The notes below the pieces were generated by a model. That model was not told the origin of the DNA. It made no database searches and worked only from the letters and a program-made list of their open reading frames with translations. Made by a program: the position numbers and the translations under genes. From a virus (lineage: Duplodnaviria; Heunggongvirae; Uroviricota; Caudoviricetes): a DNA stretch of 15,174 nt. Positions 7,240-13,963 of the stretch are shown piece by piece. The stretch's first letter is position 1; each line of letters opens with the position of its first letter. Where the stretch lies: positions 64,001 to 79,174 of IMG/VR virus record IMGVR_UViG_3300021963_000087; one strand, 5' to 3'.

Positions 7240-7630
7240 CTTCGTTTTAAAAAGGTCGTACCCAAGACACTACAACTACTCCAGCCCCCCTAAGAACTAT
7301 AAAAAAAGCCCTAAGCAAATAAGAATATAATAGGGGGAAGACTACTACGGGGGGCAATAAAAGAACTAGGGGGAGATACAATACTGGAGTGCATACAAAA
7401 AACCTATTAGTATAATAACAATAGAGGCTAGCCTAGAGAAAACGTAGGGGGGGAGAAAAGGATTGTGGGGGAGGGTAAGGGTTAAACAATAATGTTACCC
7501 AGCCCTCTATTTCCTTTCCCCAGCAAAATATATATGGTTAATGTGTATATGTATGTAGTCCCCCCTCTATTTATATGTGTATAGGGGGTAGGGTGCAATC
7601 CGATTCCACCCTAGTACTCCCAAAACAATT
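7240..7630. other. non-coding block with G/C runs and several imperfect hairpins
   Basis: No ORF; TAGGGGG at 7331, 7367, 7445 and 7582; hairpins at 7278-7390, 7447-7521, 7560-7588 and 7589-7613. Confidence 0.7.
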
Positions 7631-7635
7631 GCAAT

Positions 7636-7980
7636 ATGGCAAATAATTTATTTGAGGCTGAGAAGAAGTATTCGGTTTTCGAGATCACGAATTCAAGTAC
7701 CGGAAGTAAGAACTACGGGAAGAAGATCTATGTTGTGTCTAGTTATATGACAGAAGAAGATATCCTATCCAGGATTAGATCCATGCAAGACAGCAAGACA
7801 GGTAGGGGGGGAACTAAGGACCTATCCCAAGACATTAAATCCGCAGGGAAGGATTACAAAGAGGATTTTAAGGTAAGAACCGTGAGATCAGGTTTGACTA
7901 AAGATAATGCCGAAGCTATTAAATCCCGCTTTGTGGATAAGGCAGGGAAGGTTTACAACCAATCCCAAGCAGTAGTATAA
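7636..7980 (+). CDS. degenerate GIY-YIG-fold protein
   Basis: SVFEITN...KIYVVSS...LSR...F....SGLTK..AEAIK..F....YN follows the GIY-YIG layout; catalytic Glu apparently replaced by Lys. Confidence 0.55.
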   Translation: MANNLFEAEKKYSVFEITNSSTGSKNYGKKIYVVSSYMTEEDILSRIRSMQDSKTGRGGTKDLSQDIKSAGKDYKEDFKVRTVRSGLTKDNAEAIKSRFVDKAGKVYNQSQAVV

Positions 7981-8119
7981 TCCTACTTTAATTTTAATTT
8001 TCAAAATTTTTTTTGTATTCTTGGATTTGGGTTCAAATCGCATAGGCACGGCCTACCTCTGATCCCTCCAGGTTTCTTTTGAAAACCCGCCCGTCTGGGT
8101 ATGCCTCCCTTTGACAGCC

Positions 8120-8149
8120 TAAAGGTACGAACTTCTAGATACTAGGCAA
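8120..8149 (-). promoter_or_regulatory. leftward Bacteroidota-type promoter R1
   Basis: Minus strand TTG-N19-TAccTTTA. Confidence 0.75.
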
Positions 8150-8212
8150 CTTTTCGGCTAACTTTTTTTAAAATTTATTTTCGGGAATTTAAAAAAAAAT
8201 CTCTAGGAACTG

Positions 8213-8242
8213 TTGCCGGGGAAGGTAAAGTCCGTATCTTTA
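8213..8242 (+). promoter_or_regulatory. promoter P2
   Basis: TTG-N19-TAtcTTTA with an upstream A-tract, ahead of the DUF932 gene. Confidence 0.8.
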
Positions 8243-8283
8243 GGCCATCAAAAGAGAGACACTCTTAAAACTGTTTCCAAGTT

Positions 8284-9069
8284 ATGAACCAATTATCATT
8301 AACAGAAATCCAGACACTAGCTCCTCAAGCTTTTGCTCAAACAGCTAAGCCAGGTGTTAGTCAAAAGTATTCTTTCCTTCCTACTTCTCGCATCATTGAG
8401 GATATGGATAGATTGGGATGGAAAGTTTCAGCTGCTAAGGCAGGTAAGTATCGCAATAGCGACAATGCTCAGTATGGTAACCACTTCATTGGTTTCTTCC
8501 ATCCAGAGATTTTTATCAAGGATGCAAACGGAGAGATTGAAGCTTACCCTCAAGTAGTTGTATTCAATTCTCACACTGGCCGTGGAAGCTTTAGATTCGA
8601 AATGGGAATCTTTAGATTAGTATGCAGCAACGGAATGGTTATCAAGAGCTCTGACATGGGTAGCTTTCAATTGAAGCACACAGGTTATACTTTCGAGCAG
8701 CTTCAAGTTTTAATCAACGAAGCAGTAGAGCGTATGCCAGAGATTGCTGGGAAGATTAATACCTTCGGCCAGAGATTAATGTCAATCGAAGAACAAAGAG
8801 CTTTTGCTAAATCAGCATTCGCTTTACGCTCAGATAGATTGTTAACTCCAAACGAGCTTGAAGATTTCATTGCTCCAAGAAGAAAGGAAGACGAGGGTAA
8901 CTCTTTATGGTTAGTTCTTAATCGCATCCAGGAGTCAGTTATCAAGGGAGGTTCTTTAGCAGAGCCTAAGGTTAAGAAAGGCAAGAAGGCATTCAAAGGA
9001 ATCAAAAATATTCACAGGGATTTCAAAATCAACCAAGAGCTTTGGGAGATGGCTGAATCTTATATCTAA
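8284..9069 (+). CDS. DUF932 (UPF0380, YafZ/YfjQ/YubP-like) protein
   Basis: APQAF...VSQKYSFLPT..II, NSH.G..SF.F.MGIFRLVCSNG and D....LW...NRIQE..IKGG motifs. Confidence 0.9.
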   Translation: MNQLSLTEIQTLAPQAFAQTAKPGVSQKYSFLPTSRIIEDMDRLGWKVSAAKAGKYRNSDNAQYGNHFIGFFHPEIFIKDANGEIEAYPQVVVFNSHTGRGSFRFEMGIFRLVCSNGMVIKSSDMGSFQLKHTGYTFEQLQVLINEAVERMPEIAGKINTFGQRLMSIEEQRAFAKSAFALRSDRLLTPNELEDFIAPRRKEDEGNSLWLVLNRIQESVIKGGSLAEPKVKKGKKAFKGIKNIHRDFKINQELWEMAESYI

Positions 9070-9075
9070 AACCTT

Positions 9076-9098
9076 AGGGGGGCTACGGCCCCCCTTTA
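9076..9098 (+). terminator. intrinsic terminator with cUACGg tetraloop
   Basis: GGGGGC-TACG-GCCCCC followed by TTTT. Confidence 0.8.
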
Positions 9099-9111
9099 TA
9101 AAATTAAAGTT

Positions 9112-9420
9112 ATGAAAAAGTATGAACCAATTGAAGGATCTAACAAAGAGTTAAAGATCGAAGTCTATTACGACAAAGGTGGTATGAATTATTTCAATGG
9201 CAAGAACGAACCAAGAGGCTATTGGCTATCAATGAGACAAGTGGAGGTACAAAGAACAGATCGCAGTATTGTGATTGAGAGTTATGGAATGTTCTCAGGA
9301 GCTAAAATGTTTCTCAATGAAGTTAAGAAGAAAAGCGATAAGGCTTATCAATTAGCTTTGAGCATAGCTGAAGGAAAGATCCCTGAGTTAAAACAACATG
9401 TACTAGGTACAGCAGAATAA
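9112..9420 (+). CDS. conserved hypothetical protein (YYDKGGMNYF...RGYWLS)
   Basis: 102 aa ORF with an AAATTAAAGTTATG start context. Confidence 0.85.
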   Translation: MKKYEPIEGSNKELKIEVYYDKGGMNYFNGKNEPRGYWLSMRQVEVQRTDRSIVIESYGMFSGAKMFLNEVKKKSDKAYQLALSIAEGKIPELKQHVLGTAE

Positions 9421-9427
9421 AAAAAAG

Positions 9428-9458
9428 TTGGTAGGAATGTAAAAAGTTCCTACCTTCA
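9428..9458 (+). promoter_or_regulatory. promoter P3 with hairpin spacer
   Basis: TTG-N20-TAccTTCA; GTAGGAA/TTCCTAC stem. Confidence 0.75.
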
Positions 9459-9479
9459 CTCTATCAAAAATCAAAGCAC

Positions 9480-9785
9480 ATGAAAATTATTCCAAGAGTC
9501 CAAGTTCAGGAGACTATAAATAATCTGAAAGGAGGAACCATCTACTCAGTAACGTTTGTTAAGAAAGATGGTAGCATTCGTTTGATGAACTCTATCAAGA
9601 ATACAAAGAAGGGAGTTACAGGCGAAGGCTTAAAGTACGATGCTCAAGATAGAGGATTGATTCCAGTTTATGATCTGCAGCTGGCCAAGAAGGGTGAGGC
9701 TGAGAATAAATGTTGGAGGATGGTTAATGTAGCTACTGTTCAAAAGATTGTAGTTAATCACGAAGAGTTTTTGGTTCAGGATTAG
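9480..9785 (+). CDS. phage SH3 beta-barrel (WYL_2-like) protein
   Basis: YSVTFVKKDGSIR.M...YDL......WR.VN pattern. Confidence 0.7.
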   Translation: MKIIPRVQVQETINNLKGGTIYSVTFVKKDGSIRLMNSIKNTKKGVTGEGLKYDAQDRGLIPVYDLQLAKKGEAENKCWRMVNVATVQKIVVNHEEFLVQD

Positions 9786-9810
9786 TATAGATTTTGGTTA
9801 GTTCATGGTG

Positions 9811-9842
9811 AAAGGGATGTCCACAAGACATCCTTTTTTTTT
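9811..9842 (+). terminator. intrinsic terminator, possibly bidirectional
   Basis: GGATGTC-CACAA-GACATCC followed by a T9 run, with an upstream AAAG. Confidence 0.85.
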
Positions 9843-9921
9843 GGCATATGTGAAAAATCCTGAACAACGTACCTCTGATCTCTTCGGTGCCTGTGCCCGC
9901 CCTTTCCTCAATTGGATGGCC

Positions 9922-9952
9922 TAAAGATACGTACTAAATCCATTCCCGGCAA
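9922..9952 (-). promoter_or_regulatory. leftward promoter R2
   Basis: Minus strand TTG-N20-TAtcTTTA. Confidence 0.75.
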
Positions 9953-10005
9953 CTATTTTATTAGTTATTTTTAAAAAATATTTCTGAAAAAAACCATGCA
10001 AAAAG

Positions 10006-10035
10006 TTGCTAGATGTTTCAAAGTTCGTATCTTCA
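10006..10035 (+). promoter_or_regulatory. promoter P4
   Basis: AAAAG-TTG-N19-TAtcTTCA. Confidence 0.75.
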
Positions 10036-10087
10036 TGCTATCAAAATCAAACGAGGAGTCACCTCACTAAAAACTGAAATCAAAGTT

Positions 10088-10537
10088 ATGAAACAAGAAA
10101 TTGCAAAACTGATTGATCAGGCTTTAACAGATCAGAAAAAAGATGTGGACAATTCCTTTCCAAGTATTTTCTCCAGAGAAGATGTTAAACATCAGCTAGA
10201 AGAGTTTGGTTACGGATTAATCACCATCGTTATGGAAATGAAAGAAGAAGGGAAATCCATTCGTGGTATTTCGCTTCAAGGAGTTGAGGAGTTATCTGAG
10301 TTATTAACTAAAGCTCTTTACAAAGGAATTGAAAGATTAGATTCTGAAGAAGTAGTTGATTACAGCTCAGCTTGTTTTAACATCACTTACAACAACACAA
10401 TTGAAATCGATTCGATAGATTATCTGAGCGATAATATTACAGAAGTTGTTGACACAGCAATTGCAGAAGTTTTACACGATTTCTTTTCTCCTGAGGAAGA
10501 GGAAGTGAAAGAAACTCCATACGCAACTGAACAATAA
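10088..10537 (+). CDS. acidic hypothetical protein, 149 aa (start moved to 10088)
   Basis: The track start at 10013 lies inside promoter P4; ATG 10088 has the AAATCAAAGTTATG context. Confidence 0.8.
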   Translation: MKQEIAKLIDQALTDQKKDVDNSFPSIFSREDVKHQLEEFGYGLITIVMEMKEEGKSIRGISLQGVEELSELLTKALYKGIERLDSEEVVDYSSACFNITYNNTIEIDSIDYLSDNITEVVDTAIAEVLHDFFSPEEEEVKETPYATEQ

Positions 10538-10545
10538 AAATAAAT

Positions 10546-10580
10546 TAGCTAGCCTGGGTAAACTGGGCTAGCTTTACTTT
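10546..10580 (+). promoter_or_regulatory. hairpin terminator / degenerate promoter P5
   Basis: TAG-N20-TAgcTTTA; AGCTAGCC/GGCTAGCT stem followed by TTACTTT; shares GCTAGCCTGGGTAA with P6 and P7. Confidence 0.6.
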
Positions 10581-10594
10581 CTAAAATCAAAATT

Positions 10595-10981
10595 ATGTTA
10601 AACGAAAAAATTAAATTCAATCATCAAGCTTCAGACATCAGAGAAGCATTAAGTATTGACAACAGAAGAGCTACAGAGCTTACCGGATTATTATTCTTTA
10701 CAGAAATTAACAAAGCACACACTGTGGGTAAAATCTTTGACAACGAAGATGAAGCTCCAAGAGAATTTACTACACAAACGGGAACTCTATCAACAGTGTT
10801 AGAAGAAGTTGAAGATTTAAACGAAGTAGTCTTTACTACATTCCAATGGACAAAGAATATGCAGATGGCTAGGCATAAAGATGGCTCAGGAATGTTAGCT
10901 GCATTAACAATGATATATTTAGTTTGTGATCACGATAAGGATAAATTTATTGAAATGTTTTTAAACAAAATGGAGGATTAA
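10595..10981 (+). CDS. hypothetical protein
   Basis: 128 aa ORF with an AAAATCAAAATTATG start context. Confidence 0.8.
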   Translation: MLNEKIKFNHQASDIREALSIDNRRATELTGLLFFTEINKAHTVGKIFDNEDEAPREFTTQTGTLSTVLEEVEDLNEVVFTTFQWTKNMQMARHKDGSGMLAALTMIYLVCDHDKDKFIEMFLNKMED

Positions 10982-10983
10982 TT

Positions 10984-11187
10984 ATGGACAGTTTTAAAAT
11001 GGCTTTAGATCTTTATGACAAAACGCAGAAGCGTAGTAAGCAATTAGCAACTTTAGTGGGTTATGCTAAGGGAGAGTTAAGAACTCTCATTGAAGCTCAC
11101 AACTTAGATGAAGTAGCAAAGACCAAAGCGAAGAACGCTATTGCTAATTTGGATAAGGAGTGGAAACAAATTTATGATCTTAAATAG
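10984..11187 (+). CDS. helical hypothetical protein
   Basis: 67 aa ORF, 2 nt after the upstream stop. Confidence 0.75.
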   Translation: MDSFKMALDLYDKTQKRSKQLATLVGYAKGELRTLIEAHNLDEVAKTKAKNAIANLDKEWKQIYDLK

Positions 11188-11197
11188 CCCCCCAAGC

Positions 11198-11240
11198 AAA
11201 AGCCCGATGATAGGATTATATCCTTAGGGCTTTTAATTTT
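11198..11240 (+). terminator. intrinsic terminator-like hairpin
   Basis: AAAAGCCC/GGGCTTTT outer stem, AGGAT/ATCCT inner stem, T-rich tail. Confidence 0.7.
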
Positions 11241-11243
11241 ATT

Positions 11244-11363
11244 ATGAGTAACATAATAGCCAAATTCTTGAAGTGTCGTAATTGTAGAAAATTATTTACA
11301 CAAACGACTTACAAGAATAAGAAGAGCTTACCAATTTGTCCTTGGTGTAAGACTCACCACTAA
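11244..11363 (+). CDS. 39 aa zinc-ribbon micro-protein (CRNC...CPWC)
   Basis: Translated by hand: MSNIIAKFLKCRNCRKLFTQTTYKNKKSLPICPWCKTHH. Confidence 0.7.
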   Translation: MSNIIAKFLKCRNCRKLFTQTTYKNKKSLPICPWCKTHH

Positions 11364-11389
11364 CTAACTACTAACCCAAAAACTAATCC

Positions 11390-11701
11390 ATGGACAAAAA
11401 AAATTACGTGGCTACTTACATGAGATATTGTAAGATGCCAATCGATGAGTTGCAGAGACAACTCAAAGTTCTTTATAGAAGAAGATATGATGAACATGAT
11501 ATAGAATGTCATGAGGAGTATCGGCTAGCTTCAAGAGCTTACATTACTAGAACAAAATCTGGAACCGGTCTGATATTCCATTTAAAGAATTTCATCCCAG
11601 TGTTGGTTTTAATTATAACTCTTTGTATGTTAAAAGAAAAAACATATGAGTTTCAGATTCCTACCAACAGCTTACAAGCTAGTAAAGTTTGCAGAAGCTA
11701 A
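11390..11701 (+). CDS. hypothetical protein with a hydrophobic C-terminal segment
   Basis: 103 aa ORF; its last 56 nt overlap the next gene, so the C-terminus is uncertain. Confidence 0.6.
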   Translation: MDKKNYVATYMRYCKMPIDELQRQLKVLYRRRYDEHDIECHEEYRLASRAYITRTKSGTGLIFHLKNFIPVLVLIITLCMLKEKTYEFQIPTNSLQASKVCRS

Positions 11702-11864
11702 GCGTCGTAACGACATCACAAACATTTCTCAAGAAACCGGATACAGTCCTTCTATGGTTTCTAAAACCTTGAGTGGCTTACGTAACAATGAATCAATTGT
11801 TAATAAAGCTTACCGCATTGTTAAAGATCGTCAAACAAATTTAACGGCATTGGCGAAAGCCTAA
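11646..11864 (+). CDS. small helix-turn-helix DNA-binding protein
   Basis: ITNISQETGYSPSMVSKTLSG fits the HTH pattern. Confidence 0.7.
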   Translation: MSFRFLPTAYKLVKFAEAKRRNDITNISQETGYSPSMVSKTLSGLRNNESIVNKAYRIVKDRQTNLTALAKA

Positions 11865-11907
11865 AGATAGTTATGTAGGTTCATAACTTTTGATTTTGGA
11901 AAACGAG

Positions 11908-11935
11908 GCCCCCATTCTTGGGGGCTTCCTTATTT
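11908..11935 (+). terminator. intrinsic terminator-like hairpin
   Basis: GCCCCCA-TTCT-TGGGGGC with a T-rich tail; flanks allow bidirectional use. Confidence 0.7.
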
Positions 11936-11949
11936 GCCAAAGGGACCCC

Positions 11950-11980
11950 TAAAGGTACGAACCTTGAGCCAAACTAGCAA
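11950..11980 (-). promoter_or_regulatory. leftward promoter R3
   Basis: Minus strand TTG-N20-TAccTTTA. Confidence 0.75.
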
Positions 11981-12019
11981 CGGATGTGCATAACTTTTTT
12001 GAGGAAAAAACCTTAAGAA

Positions 12020-12077
12020 AAAGTTGCTAGCCTGGGTAACTCTTAGTATCTTTAGGTCCTAAACAATCAAAGTTATG
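12020..12077 (+). promoter_or_regulatory. promoter P6 + start cassette
   Basis: TTG(12024)-N20-TAtcTTTA(12047), then GGTCCTAAACAATCAAAGTTATG. Confidence 0.85.
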
Positions 12078-12269
12078 AAAAAACAAATTTTTTTAGCAGT
12101 AATAGGGTTCTGCTCCCTAATAAGTGCTTTCGGCTTACTAATAGTCGGAGAGGTCTTTGAAAGAAGTGAGGTGTACTATCAGCTCTTTCATTTGTTCTTT
12201 GCTGTAGGACTTGTTGGTTCTTTGGGGTATCTGTTTTCGACTATTGAAACCACACAACCTAAAAAGTAA
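12075..12269 (+). CDS. small two-helix membrane protein
   Basis: Two hydrophobic segments in 64 aa. Confidence 0.8.
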   Translation: MKKQIFLAVIGFCSLISAFGLLIVGEVFERSEVYYQLFHLFFAVGLVGSLGYLFSTIETTQPKK

Positions 12270-12273
12270 AGCC

Positions 12274-12480
12274 ATGAAACAAACTCACGAAGAGATTAAA
12301 CAATCCTACAAAGAGATAGTTAGCTTATGGAACTCTCAGCCATTCCTTGAAAGATTACTATTCTTAATGAACAAGTGTAGATTCAATCAAGACGATGCAG
12401 AGGTAATAGCAAAGAAAGCTTTCCATCACATTAATGACCTCTATAGAATCATTATCTTTAACGAACTAAATAAAAGCTAA
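12274..12480 (+). CDS. hypothetical protein (start moved to 12274)
   Basis: ATG 4 nt after the upstream stop removes the 59-nt overlap. Confidence 0.75.
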   Translation: MKQTHEEIKQSYKEIVSLWNSQPFLERLLFLMNKCRFNQDDAEVIAKKAFHHINDLYRIIIFNELNKS

Positions 12481-12482
12481 TT

Positions 12483-12668
12483 ATGAATTATTATATAATA
12501 ACTTACGGGGTCCATGAACATGAAGGGTTCGATGGCTATGAACTACATCACACTAAACCTATTCCTGCTATCAGTGCTATAGAAGCTGCTGAACGATTCA
12601 GGGATGTGTTCGAAAGCAATGAAGGAGTACCTTGTGAGATACACAGTATTAAATTAGTAAAAGAATAA
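12483..12668 (+). CDS. hypothetical protein
   Basis: 61 aa ORF in operon. Confidence 0.75.
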   Translation: MNYYIITYGVHEHEGFDGYELHHTKPIPAISAIEAAERFRDVFESNEGVPCEIHSIKLVKE

Positions 12669-12672
12669 AGTT

Positions 12673-12786
12673 ATGAAAACATTCAATGAGTGGAACAAAG
12701 ATCGTCAGAAGCAAGAAGCGGAGCAAGCTGAGTTCCTAGTGGTCCTTATCTTTATCCTGCTCGGCATAGCAGCCATAGCAGCTTAA
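12673..12786 (+). CDS. 37 aa micro-protein with a C-terminal transmembrane helix
   Basis: Translated by hand: MKTFNEWNKDRQKQEAEQAEFLVVLIFILLGIAAIAA; AAAGTTATG context. Confidence 0.7.
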   Translation: MKTFNEWNKDRQKQEAEQAEFLVVLIFILLGIAAIAA

Positions 12787-12789
12787 AAA

Positions 12790-12845
12790 AAAGTTGCTAG
12801 CCTGGGTAACCTCTAGTATCTTTATATCCTAAAATCAAAGTTATG
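12790..12845 (+). promoter_or_regulatory. promoter P7 + start cassette
   Basis: TTG(12794)-N20-TAtcTTTA(12817); near copy of P6. Confidence 0.85.
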
Positions 12846-12974
12846 AATGAAACAATTACACTTGCAGAAGCAATCTTGGTGTCAATCGTGACAGTAGTCG
12901 GTTGGGCAGCAATAAAGACTATCCTAGAGATGATAGAAGATAAAAGTAATTATCGTAAACGCCAAAACTCTTAA
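12843..12974 (+). CDS. 43 aa micro-protein with one transmembrane helix
   Basis: Translated by hand: MNETITLAEAILVSIVTVVGWAAIKTILEMIEDKSNYRKRQNS. Confidence 0.7.
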   Translation: MNETITLAEAILVSIVTVVGWAAIKTILEMIEDKSNYRKRQNS

Positions 12975-12976
12975 TC

Positions 12977-13258
12977 ATGAACAAAGTAATTGAGTATGAA
13001 GTAAGCTATGACTTACAAGTAGAGATTAAGTACATAGGAGAAGAGGAGCCTAACGAGCACTACTTCGAGCTACACAGACACTTCCCTGAGCTAACCTTTG
13101 ATGATGAAGAGGATGAAGCTAAGGCAGTAGTGTTCCCTGATGGGAAGATAGAGATAGAGTCCTACGAAGGAGGCTACCTAAGAGACGAAGAGGTAAGTGC
13201 CATAGGCCAGATGATGGAAGAGATATTAGCTAAAGTAATAATTAATAGTCATGATTAA
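12977..13258 (+). CDS. highly acidic hypothetical protein
   Basis: About 26 D/E versus 7 K/R in 93 aa (hand count). Confidence 0.8.
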   Translation: MNKVIEYEVSYDLQVEIKYIGEEEPNEHYFELHRHFPELTFDDEEDEAKAVVFPDGKIEIESYEGGYLRDEEVSAIGQMMEEILAKVIINSHD

Positions 13259-13448
13259 GAAGAAGTTCAAGGTAGTAGAGACTAGAACAGCTACAGCATA
13301 TTGGGTCTACGAAGTAGAAGCAGAGAGTGAGGAGGAAGCCAAGAAGCTAGTGGAAGAGATAACAATAGACCCAGAAGACCCAGAGCACTTCACAGAAGTA
13401 GATTGGGATAGTGAGGCAGAGTTCGAGTACCAAGAAGTATTAAAATAA
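13251..13448 (+). CDS. highly acidic small protein (YEVEAESEEEA, DpnD/PcfM-like pattern)
   Basis: About 20 D/E in 65 aa (hand count). Confidence 0.75.
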   Translation: MIKKKFKVVETRTATAYWVYEVEAESEEEAKKLVEEITIDPEDPEHFTEVDWDSEAEFEYQEVLK

Positions 13449-13504
13449 AGTTGCTAGTCTGGCTAACCTGGAGTACCTTTAGGTCCTAAACAATCAAAGC
13501 TATG
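13447..13504 (+). promoter_or_regulatory. promoter P8 + start cassette
   Basis: TTG(13451)-N20-TAccTTTA(13474); 50 of 58 nt identical to P6. Confidence 0.85.
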
Positions 13505-13708
13505 ACAAATCAAACAAACTATTACATCTTTGGGAACAAAGGTGCCGTGTGGACTAACAAAGCTCACGCAGCCAAGACAGGAGAAGTAGGAACCTTATGT
13601 GGAACTCCAATGCTAAGTAGCAATTGGGCTAGGATAGAAGGTATAACCGAAGTAGGATGCCCAGAATGCCTTAAAAGACTAGAAGAAGAGAAGATAATGA
13701 AGAGATAG
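13502..13708 (+). CDS. small putative Zn-binding protein (H...LCG...CPEC)
   Basis: His/Cys spacing in 68 aa. Confidence 0.7.
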   Translation: MTNQTNYYIFGNKGAVWTNKAHAAKTGEVGTLCGTPMLSSNWARIEGITEVGCPECLKRLEEEKIMKR

Positions 13709-13718
13709 CTTTGATAAC

Positions 13719-13763
13719 CCTCGGGAAGGCTTTCAATCAACCGGAAGCCTCCCCCTCCCGAGG
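13719..13763. terminator. nested GC-rich hairpin after the P8 gene
   Basis: CCTCGGGA/TCCCGAGG outer stem and AGGCTT/AAGCCT inner stem; no clear U-tract. Confidence 0.45.
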
Positions 13764-13777
13764 ATTAGTTGAGAGAA

Positions 13778-13917
13778 GGGGGGTCCAAGCGATGACGAGG
13801 TGGGTCCATGTGAGTGCATGATGCTCTCAGATGATGGCATGATGAACCCAACGTAATTACAGCTGATACCGCGATATACGCATATTACCATGCCTCTGAT
13901 CGTTGTTAGACCCCCCC
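13778..13917. ncRNA. candidate structured non-coding RNA or DNA element
   Basis: GGGGGGTC/GACCCCCC closing stem with further nested pairings; GC-rich; no credible ORF. Confidence 0.45.
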
Positions 13918-13963
13918 GTAAAATTTTAGAAAAGGTTTTGGTATATATTAAAAACAAGTAAGT

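What the first reader, a model, noticed from the sequence alone, without database searches (positions are those of the whole stretch)
8054..13917. Shared bipartite non-coding motif CCTCTGATC-N9-21-CCC(G/C)CCC in three places
Copies: 8054-8092 (TACCTCTGATC-N21-CCCGCCC), 9870-9902 (TACCTCTGATC-N15-CCCGCCC) and 13893-13917 (CCTCTGATC-N9-CCCCCCC). All are intergenic, in the same orientation, and otherwise unrelated in sequence. The first two lie just downstream of leftward promoters, so the RNA would read GGGCGGG-(variable)-GAUCAGAGGUA. Two fixed boxes around a variable insert suggests a protein-bound or guide-like small-RNA family, or a two-part DNA site. I do not recognise it as any known family.
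Basis: partly seen in the sequence, partly recalled or inferred. Interest (0 to 1): 0.8.

Follow-up and report, generated by a model that had tools for sequence, protein, structure and literature searches.

The report
New multicopy small RNA in phages
Two of the three flagged sites are copies of an undescribed, roughly 60-base folded RNA that large lake phages of Bacteroidota appear to make from their own strong host-type promoters in the early-gene region; a look-alike sits in a phage that can be grown in the lab, so its unknown job can be tested, while the third site is a chance match.

Summary
Copies 1 (8046-8115) and 2 (9862-9917) are real. Both are minus-strand transcription units of one family: a Bacteroidota primary-sigma promoter, an optional 3-bp 5' hairpin, RGGC, a variable hairpin, then a near-invariant 21-nt core, GRAGRGAUCAGASGKASGYYG. 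About 90 distinct copies occur in relatives, 1-5 per contig. There is no Rfam match and no real copy in GTDB cellular genomes.

Copy 3 is not a member. It scores nothing with the covariance model and lies in the variable spacer of a different, rigidly spaced DNA site.

A sister RNA with the same architecture but a divergent core is present once in the cultured Flavobacterium phage immuto, the closest isolate. Its homology is likely but not shown by model cross-hits.

Best guess (0.45): a free early RNA that binds a host protein as a decoy or inhibitor. Main rival (0.28): a put-like nascent RNA acting on RNA polymerase. Neither transcription nor function is shown.

The parts
8120..8149 (-). Bacteroidota primary-sigma promoter of copy 1 (TTG 8149-8147, 19-nt spacer, TACCTTTA 8127-8120); predicted +1 at 8115
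   Evidence: -7 box lies at -12..-5 (PMC9723704)
8046..8115 (-). Small RNA copy 1: P1 (8113-8115 with 8093-8095), RGGC 8089-8092, variable hairpin P2 8070-8088, 21-nt core 8049-8069
   Evidence: R1 53.5 bits; a relative has a compensatory U-A to A-U change at 8085/8073 (L183)
9922..9952 (-). Promoter of copy 2 (TTG, 20-nt spacer, TATCTTTA); predicted +1 at 9917
9862..9917 (-). Small RNA copy 2: leader, GGGC 9899-9902, short hairpin 9886-9898, core 9865-9885
   Evidence: R1 52.3 bits
13807..13947 (.).
7636..7980 (+). 114-aa ORF with a probable GIY-YIG fold, convergent with copy 1; a positional neighbour, functional link not shown
7589..7613 (.). Motif C: conserved imperfect palindrome (GGRTGCAATYSGATTSCA) marking the left border of the early module

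Best explanation
Each element is a stand-alone gene for a structured RNA whose conserved part ends about 50-70 nt after +1. Host RNA polymerase with the primary sigma factor would make it at the very start of infection, from the early module of Immutovirus-related Bacteroidota phages. The variable hairpin folds out and brings the RGGC box next to the purine-rich core, so a fixed surface forms whatever the insert length. That surface most likely binds a host protein as an aptamer-like decoy or inhibitor (an anti-phage RNA sensor or RNase, or a transcription or RNA-binding factor), and extra copies raise the dose. Shown: the family, promoter geometry, P2 covariation, P1 pairing, phage-only distribution. 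Inferred: transcription, release as a free RNA, the 3' end, protein binding, the target.
For: 91 distinct copies, 87 with the TTG of the promoter in place and nearly all starting on a purine at +1. Of 400 strict host-type promoters in these loci, 301 lead to ORFs and 64 to this element, the main gene-less product. P2: 88% of cells paired, 4/4 pairs with compensatory changes, score 0.735 against 0.26 or less when slid, and G-U is the commonest base pair, which favours RNA on this strand. P1 pairs in 50/52 copies of the class that can form it (GUC/GAC, AUC/GAU, ACC/GGU, GCA/UGC). Copies found without using the core keep GRAG, AUC and GUAS-GYUR. 15 of 115 copies are co-oriented with genes, and those inspected are followed by a new promoter, so direction is not obligatory. 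Copy number is 1-5 per contig. No exact core in 185,579 cellular genomes apart from 2 promoter-less chance hits. No in-genome pairing target better than shuffles.
Against: No intrinsic terminator within 140 nt on the RNA strand in 66 of 84 copies, so a defined free RNA needs Rho or trimming. Orientation is strongly biased: 100/115 antisense to genes, 45/48 pointing toward motif C, sister family 27/27. No partner protein or host RNA being mimicked was identified. Core conservation is partly an artefact of searching with the core.
Confidence: 0.45

Rival explanations
1. A put-like nascent RNA acting in cis. It folds on the polymerase that makes it and makes that polymerase pause or resist Rho, so untranslated leftward transcription reaches the left-border sites (for DNA entry, origin activation or antisense silencing of the convergent gene).
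For: Size, two stem-loops and a position right at the start site match HK022 putL, which is about 70 nt with a pause 21 nt past stem II (PMC9378689). Here a G-10/Y-1/G+1 pause register falls 20-21 nt past P2 in 88/89 copies. No terminator in most copies. Orientation is toward motif C or repeat arrays in three clades.
Against: Most copies have no co-oriented gene to antiterminate. Several copies would send polymerases head-on into early genes. 15 copies point the other way. The pause register is not evident in the sister family by eye, and in family A it is partly built into the search pattern.
Confidence: 0.28
2. A base-pairing sRNA whose 21-nt core is a seed against a conserved host mRNA or rRNA, like FopS.
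For: Multicopy and primary-sigma driven. The core is largely unpaired and varies mostly by A/G and C/U transitions, which tolerate G-U pairing.
Against: No full complement in GTDB genomes (both strands). No phage target above shuffles. The core of the sister family differs while the architecture stays. No terminator, unlike FopS.
Confidence: 0.1
3. A DNA-level ops-like pause site for a NusG paralogue, or an R-loop primer for replication; the RNA folds are secondary.
For: Core positions 10-21 (AGASGTASGYTG) align with RfaH ops (GGCGGTAGnnTG, from memory) at G2, G5, T6, A7, T11 and G12. The core is purine-rich. Bacteroides opsX sites are about 40 bp long (PMC11685472).
Against: RGGC is conserved at a variable DNA distance (13-25 nt), which only a folded single strand can fix. 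P2 ends at -21, not at -9 to -14 as opsX pause hairpins do. No downstream operon. The sister family lacks the ops register.
Confidence: 0.12
4. A selfish or neutral promoter cassette spread by recombination, like PeSLs.
For: The early module is full of repeated promoter cassettes. Copy number varies, and one relative (L126) lacks the element.
Against: The core is near-invariant and the stems compensatory among phages whose neighbouring proteins are only 45-70% identical. Single-copy clades retain it.
Confidence: 0.05

Closest known systems
HK022 put RNAs (putL/putR; PMC9378689)
   Same: About 70-nt two-stem RNA encoded right after a phage early promoter read by host polymerase; no ORF; possible pause about 21 nt past the last stem
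   Different: put precedes co-oriented operons and terminators, whereas this element is mostly antisense to all genes; up to 5 dispersed copies; polymerase binding untested; sequence not compared
Phage decoy RNAs: PhiTE pseudo-ToxI and RNA anti-CRISPRs (Racr) (from memory)
   Same: Phage non-coding RNA in several copies that could titrate a host protein
   Different: Dispersed genes with their own promoters, not a tandem 34-36-nt array or a CRISPR repeat; no host template found
FopS multicopy sRNAs of Bacteroides (PMC11697453)
   Same: Paralogous 60-70-nt RNAs from primary-sigma promoters in Bacteroidota
   Different: FopS is a 5' single-stranded seed plus a Rho-independent terminator and is host-encoded; here two 5' hairpins, a 3' core, no terminator, phage-only, no Rfam hit
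PeSL cassettes of T4-type phages (PMC2839356)
   Same: Repeated promoter-plus-stem-loop units in a variable early region
   Different: PeSL stem-loops are terminators and the promoters serve genes; here the promoter makes a gene-less RNA with an invariant core
RfaH ops / Bacteroides opsX pause sites (PMC11685472)
   Same: 12-nt register with GGTA and a TG pause edge
   Different: No operon downstream, hairpin at the wrong distance, elastic upstream box

Membership tests
Any Rfam 15 family | Match to a covariance model | tested here: not met
   0 hits at E<=1 in the window; only 2 chance hits far below threshold in 5 loci
put antiterminator RNA | About 70 nt, two stem-loops, just downstream of an early promoter | tested here: met
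   47-71 nt from +1 to core end; P1 and P2; P1 absent in some subtypes
put antiterminator RNA | Lies upstream of co-oriented genes and terminators that it lets polymerase read through | tested here: not met
   100/115 antisense to local genes; sister family 27/27
put antiterminator RNA | Binds the beta-prime zinc-binding domain and suppresses pausing and termination | not testable with these tools
   needs in vitro transcription
put antiterminator RNA | Sequence similarity to putL/putR | not tested
   no put sequence was available from a tool
ops/opsX pause site | G-10 Y-1 G+1 consensus pause | tested here: inconclusive
   88/89 in family A but partly built into the search pattern; not evident in the sister family
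ops/opsX pause site | Pause hairpin reaching -9 to -14, in the leader of an operon | tested here: not met
   P2 ends at -21; no downstream ORF
Guide RNA (CRISPR, TIGR) | Variable segment is an unpaired spacer in an array | tested here: not met
   variable segment is a covarying hairpin; copies are dispersed
Type III antitoxin or pseudo-ToxI | Tandem array of 34-36-nt pseudoknot repeats | tested here: not met
   single units, each with its own promoter; no Rfam hit
FopS sRNA | [quoted passage not shown] | tested here: not met
   5' end is hairpins; terminator-like site in only 18/84
PeSL cassette | Promoter drives a downstream ORF; stem-loop terminates upstream transcripts | tested here: not met
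   gene-less transcript with the hairpins inside it

The most novel reading that the evidence does not exclude
A new class of phage-encoded RNA effectors, shared by large Immutovirus-related Bacteroidota phages, that is made within minutes of infection and disables a host defence or reprograms host RNA polymerase without any phage protein. It would be testable in Flavobacterium LMO8 with phage immuto.
Probability: 0.3. Interest if true: 0.85.

Novelty: new variant of a known kind. Interest (0 to 1): 0.62.

Why it matters
Few small RNAs of lytic phages have a known role, and I know of none in Bacteroidota phages (own knowledge; the paper searches found none). This family recurs in many metagenome assemblies, is under structural and sequence selection, and is the main gene-less product of host-type promoters in these phages. 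The closest cultured phage carries one sister copy (NC_055915.1, 67451-67503, minus strand), so expression, ends, binding partner and deletion phenotype can be tested directly. Either leading outcome, an RNA counter-defence factor or a put-like polymerase-binding RNA outside enterobacteria, would be new for this phylum.

Tried and rejected
- Rfam: nothing. Full-text search for core strings: 0 papers. Supplements of the two main RNA-motif surveys are not held, so a listing among unnamed candidate motifs cannot be excluded.
- Cultured phages by blastn: no true copy of family A.
- Models R1 and R2 do not cross-hit, so homology of the sister family rests on architecture and position only.
- 3' helices: GGC with GYY (98.9% pairable) and CRG with YUG (95.9%) are both possible, and neither has a compensatory change. 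Unresolved.
- tRNA D-arm mimicry: the core shares 11/12 nt with the D-arm of the phage's tRNA-Met, but the D-stem cannot pair. Rejected.
- Likenesses to SAM-I, glycine riboswitch, K-turn, anti-SD and hammerhead, recalled from memory, fall in variable positions. Rejected.
- Element B read on the minus strand loosely resembles the core (AUCAG...UACGUUG), but those bases vary as a CANNTG repeat. Left as possible distant kinship, about 15%.
- Metatranscriptome contigs of related strains cover the region in four runs but give no strand or ends. In one run a contig ends at 8095 and the next begins at 8264, which is too weak to count.
- A covariance-model search of Bacteroidota genomes could not be run because no genome handle was obtainable.
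- One structure string was mis-registered and corrected.
- The E. coli-type promoter scan does not cover these promoters.
Full report
Setting. The window is the right end of a 79-kb linear viral contig, estimated 46% complete. Its helicase and DNA polymerase are closest, among cultured phages, to Flavobacterium phage vB_FspM_immuto (56% and 58% identity). From about 7.6 to 13.9 kb lies an early module of small ORFs, most behind their own Bacteroidota primary-sigma promoter (TTG-N19/20-TAnnTTTA). The -7 box of such promoters lies at -12 to -5 (PMC9723704), which places +1 five bases after the box.

Observation. Copies 1 and 2 start at leftward promoters, with predicted +1 at 8115 and 9917. Copy 3 has no such promoter.

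Family A. Relatives found through neighbouring proteins already carried many more copies with a longer consensus. A 21-nt pattern then returned 22 viral and at least 119 metagenome stretches. These gave 91 distinct copies with a promoter-like -7 box, 87 with the TTG element at the right distance. The architecture is constant: promoter; +1 purine; a leader, mostly 10-24 nt, that often forms a 3-bp hairpin starting at +1 (50/52 in the class that can form it, with GUC/GAC, AUC/GAU, ACC/GGU and GCA/UGC); RGGC; a 13-25-nt insert; then the core GRAGRGAUCAGASGKASGYYG, after which conservation drops. The insert is a stem-loop: 88% of cells pair, all four pairs show changes on both sides, and the score is 0.735 against at most 0.26 when slid. 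Related sequences inflate these counts, but at least four stem types swap both strands, and a close strain has a U-A to A-U swap at 8085/8073. G-U is the commonest first pair, which favours RNA on the promoter-sense strand. Model R1 scores copies 1 and 2 at 53 bits and finds nothing else of note in the contig. Other contigs hold 1-5 copies, and a complete 174-kb genome holds one. GTDB genomes gave two promoter-less chance hits, and Rfam gave nothing. Core conservation is partly ascertainment. A core-independent scan recovered the same elements plus variants with short insertions after GRAG.

Copy 3. It lies in a second conserved feature, element B. In 16 homologues TATATA sits at -80/-79 from the core, AAATT mostly at -59/-58, and CANNTG hexamers recur at +2, +34, +44, +54, +64 and +74. 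Folding is not conserved, and the strong hairpin seen in this window is idiosyncratic. Rigid spacing with a 10-bp phase points to a DNA site such as an origin, packaging or injection-stop signal (inference). The contrast is useful: B tolerates almost no indels, while A tolerates any insert that folds.

Sister family. In the part of immuto's early region scanned, one leftward consensus promoter in an intergenic gap leads to GGGC, a hairpin, GAAGAG, a different middle, and GUAC. Twenty-seven distinct such copies were found. Their hairpin covaries too (93% paired, 4 of 6 pairs compensatory), several carry the same GACGGGC box, and all are antisense to local genes. Model R2 finds exactly one copy in immuto and in each of four near-complete relatives. 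R1 and R2 do not cross-hit. A descriptor using only promoter, RGGC, hairpin and GRAG picks 115 of 2,354 promoter-led starts: 86 family A, 27 sister and 2 unrelated, with a 3.7% null rate. It was written with both families in view, so I put homology at about 80%.

Context. The element accounts for 64 of 400 strict host-type promoters, and almost all others lead to ORFs. 100 of 115 copies run against the local genes, and 45 of 48 point toward motif C at the left border. The leftmost copy converges on a small basic protein gene that differs by clade. Here it is a probable GIY-YIG-fold protein (top PDB hit I-TevI catalytic domain, probability 0.92 but E 0.12; 27/29 homologues within 400 nt of a copy, in loci mostly chosen by the element). 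Elsewhere it is an Arg/Lys-rich peptide. The link therefore looks positional. Only 18 of 84 copies have a terminator-like site on the RNA strand within 140 nt, against 42 on the opposite strand.

Mechanism. Shown: a promoter-led, gene-less, phage-specific element under selection for RNA structure and for an unpaired or weakly paired purine-rich core. Inferred: the hairpin extrudes the insert so that RGGC and the core form a protein-binding surface. I favour a free early RNA acting as a decoy or inhibitor of a host protein (0.45), because direction is not obligatory, copy number varies, co-oriented copies are followed by independent promoters, and no pairing target was found. The put-like cis model (0.28) explains the missing terminators, the direction bias and a pause register 20-21 nt past P2, but not the lack of genes to read into. 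Base-pairing sRNA (0.10), ops-like or primer site (0.12) and neutral cassette (0.05) fit less well. Transcription itself is not shown: RNA-library contigs cover the region but give no strand or ends.

Comparison and verdict. It works perhaps like a decoy RNA or like put, but it fails a defining test of every family considered (see the membership test). No paper in the searchable library prints the core, though large candidate lists could not be checked. It is a real, previously unnamed phage small-RNA family with two members in this window, the function is open, and a cultured test system is at hand. Interest 0.62.

Noticed in passing
window 13807-13947: Element B: conserved rigid site with a 25-bp core, 10-bp-phased CANNTG hexamers and an AT-rich flank at the right border of the early module; candidate origin, packaging or injection-stop signal; one copy per locus in about 19 distinct homologues.
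   Followed up: partly
window 7240-7613: G-run-rich gene-free stretch ending in motif C (TGCAAT-n-ATTSCA palindrome), often present twice 220-300 bp apart in relatives. With element B it brackets a 4-11 kb early module, possibly a terminal repeat.
   Followed up: partly
window 7636-7980: Stand-alone GIY-YIG-fold protein with altered GIY/YIG motifs but conserved Arg48, Glu90 and Asn108, preceded by CTATTTATA (possible late promoter); no Pfam or PHROG match.
   Followed up: partly
window 11880-11985: A third leftward host promoter drives a different gene-less hairpin RNA, seen only in near-identical strains (L215, L242).
   Followed up: partly
window 10088-10537: Acidic protein of unknown family (SFPSIFSREDV motif), the most frequent neighbour of the RNA across clades (41 of 56 long loci); no Pfam, PHROG or Atlas hit; possible DNA mimic.
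   Followed up: partly
L308:18090-18210 and 18530-18680 (phage immuto): Two arrays of ACCCG(T/A) repeats with roughly 11-12 bp period, just downstream of the sister RNA; iteron-like.
   Followed up: no
L130:9660 and L133:6957, + strand: Another promoter-led, gene-less, GC-rich transcript (core GGUGAGAGAAAACUGACAG) shared by two related phages; possible further ncRNA.
   Followed up: no
G000:C1:30860-32839: The phage encodes a tmRNA (tag ANEYAVAA) and four tRNAs, besides GroEL/GroES-like and many sugar-modifying genes.
   Followed up: no
window 9480-9785: WYL_2/Sm-like SH3 protein (PF10902, below cut-off) directly upstream of copy 2; a possible nucleic-acid binder, but only 6 of 25 homologues lie within 400 nt of a copy.
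   Followed up: partly
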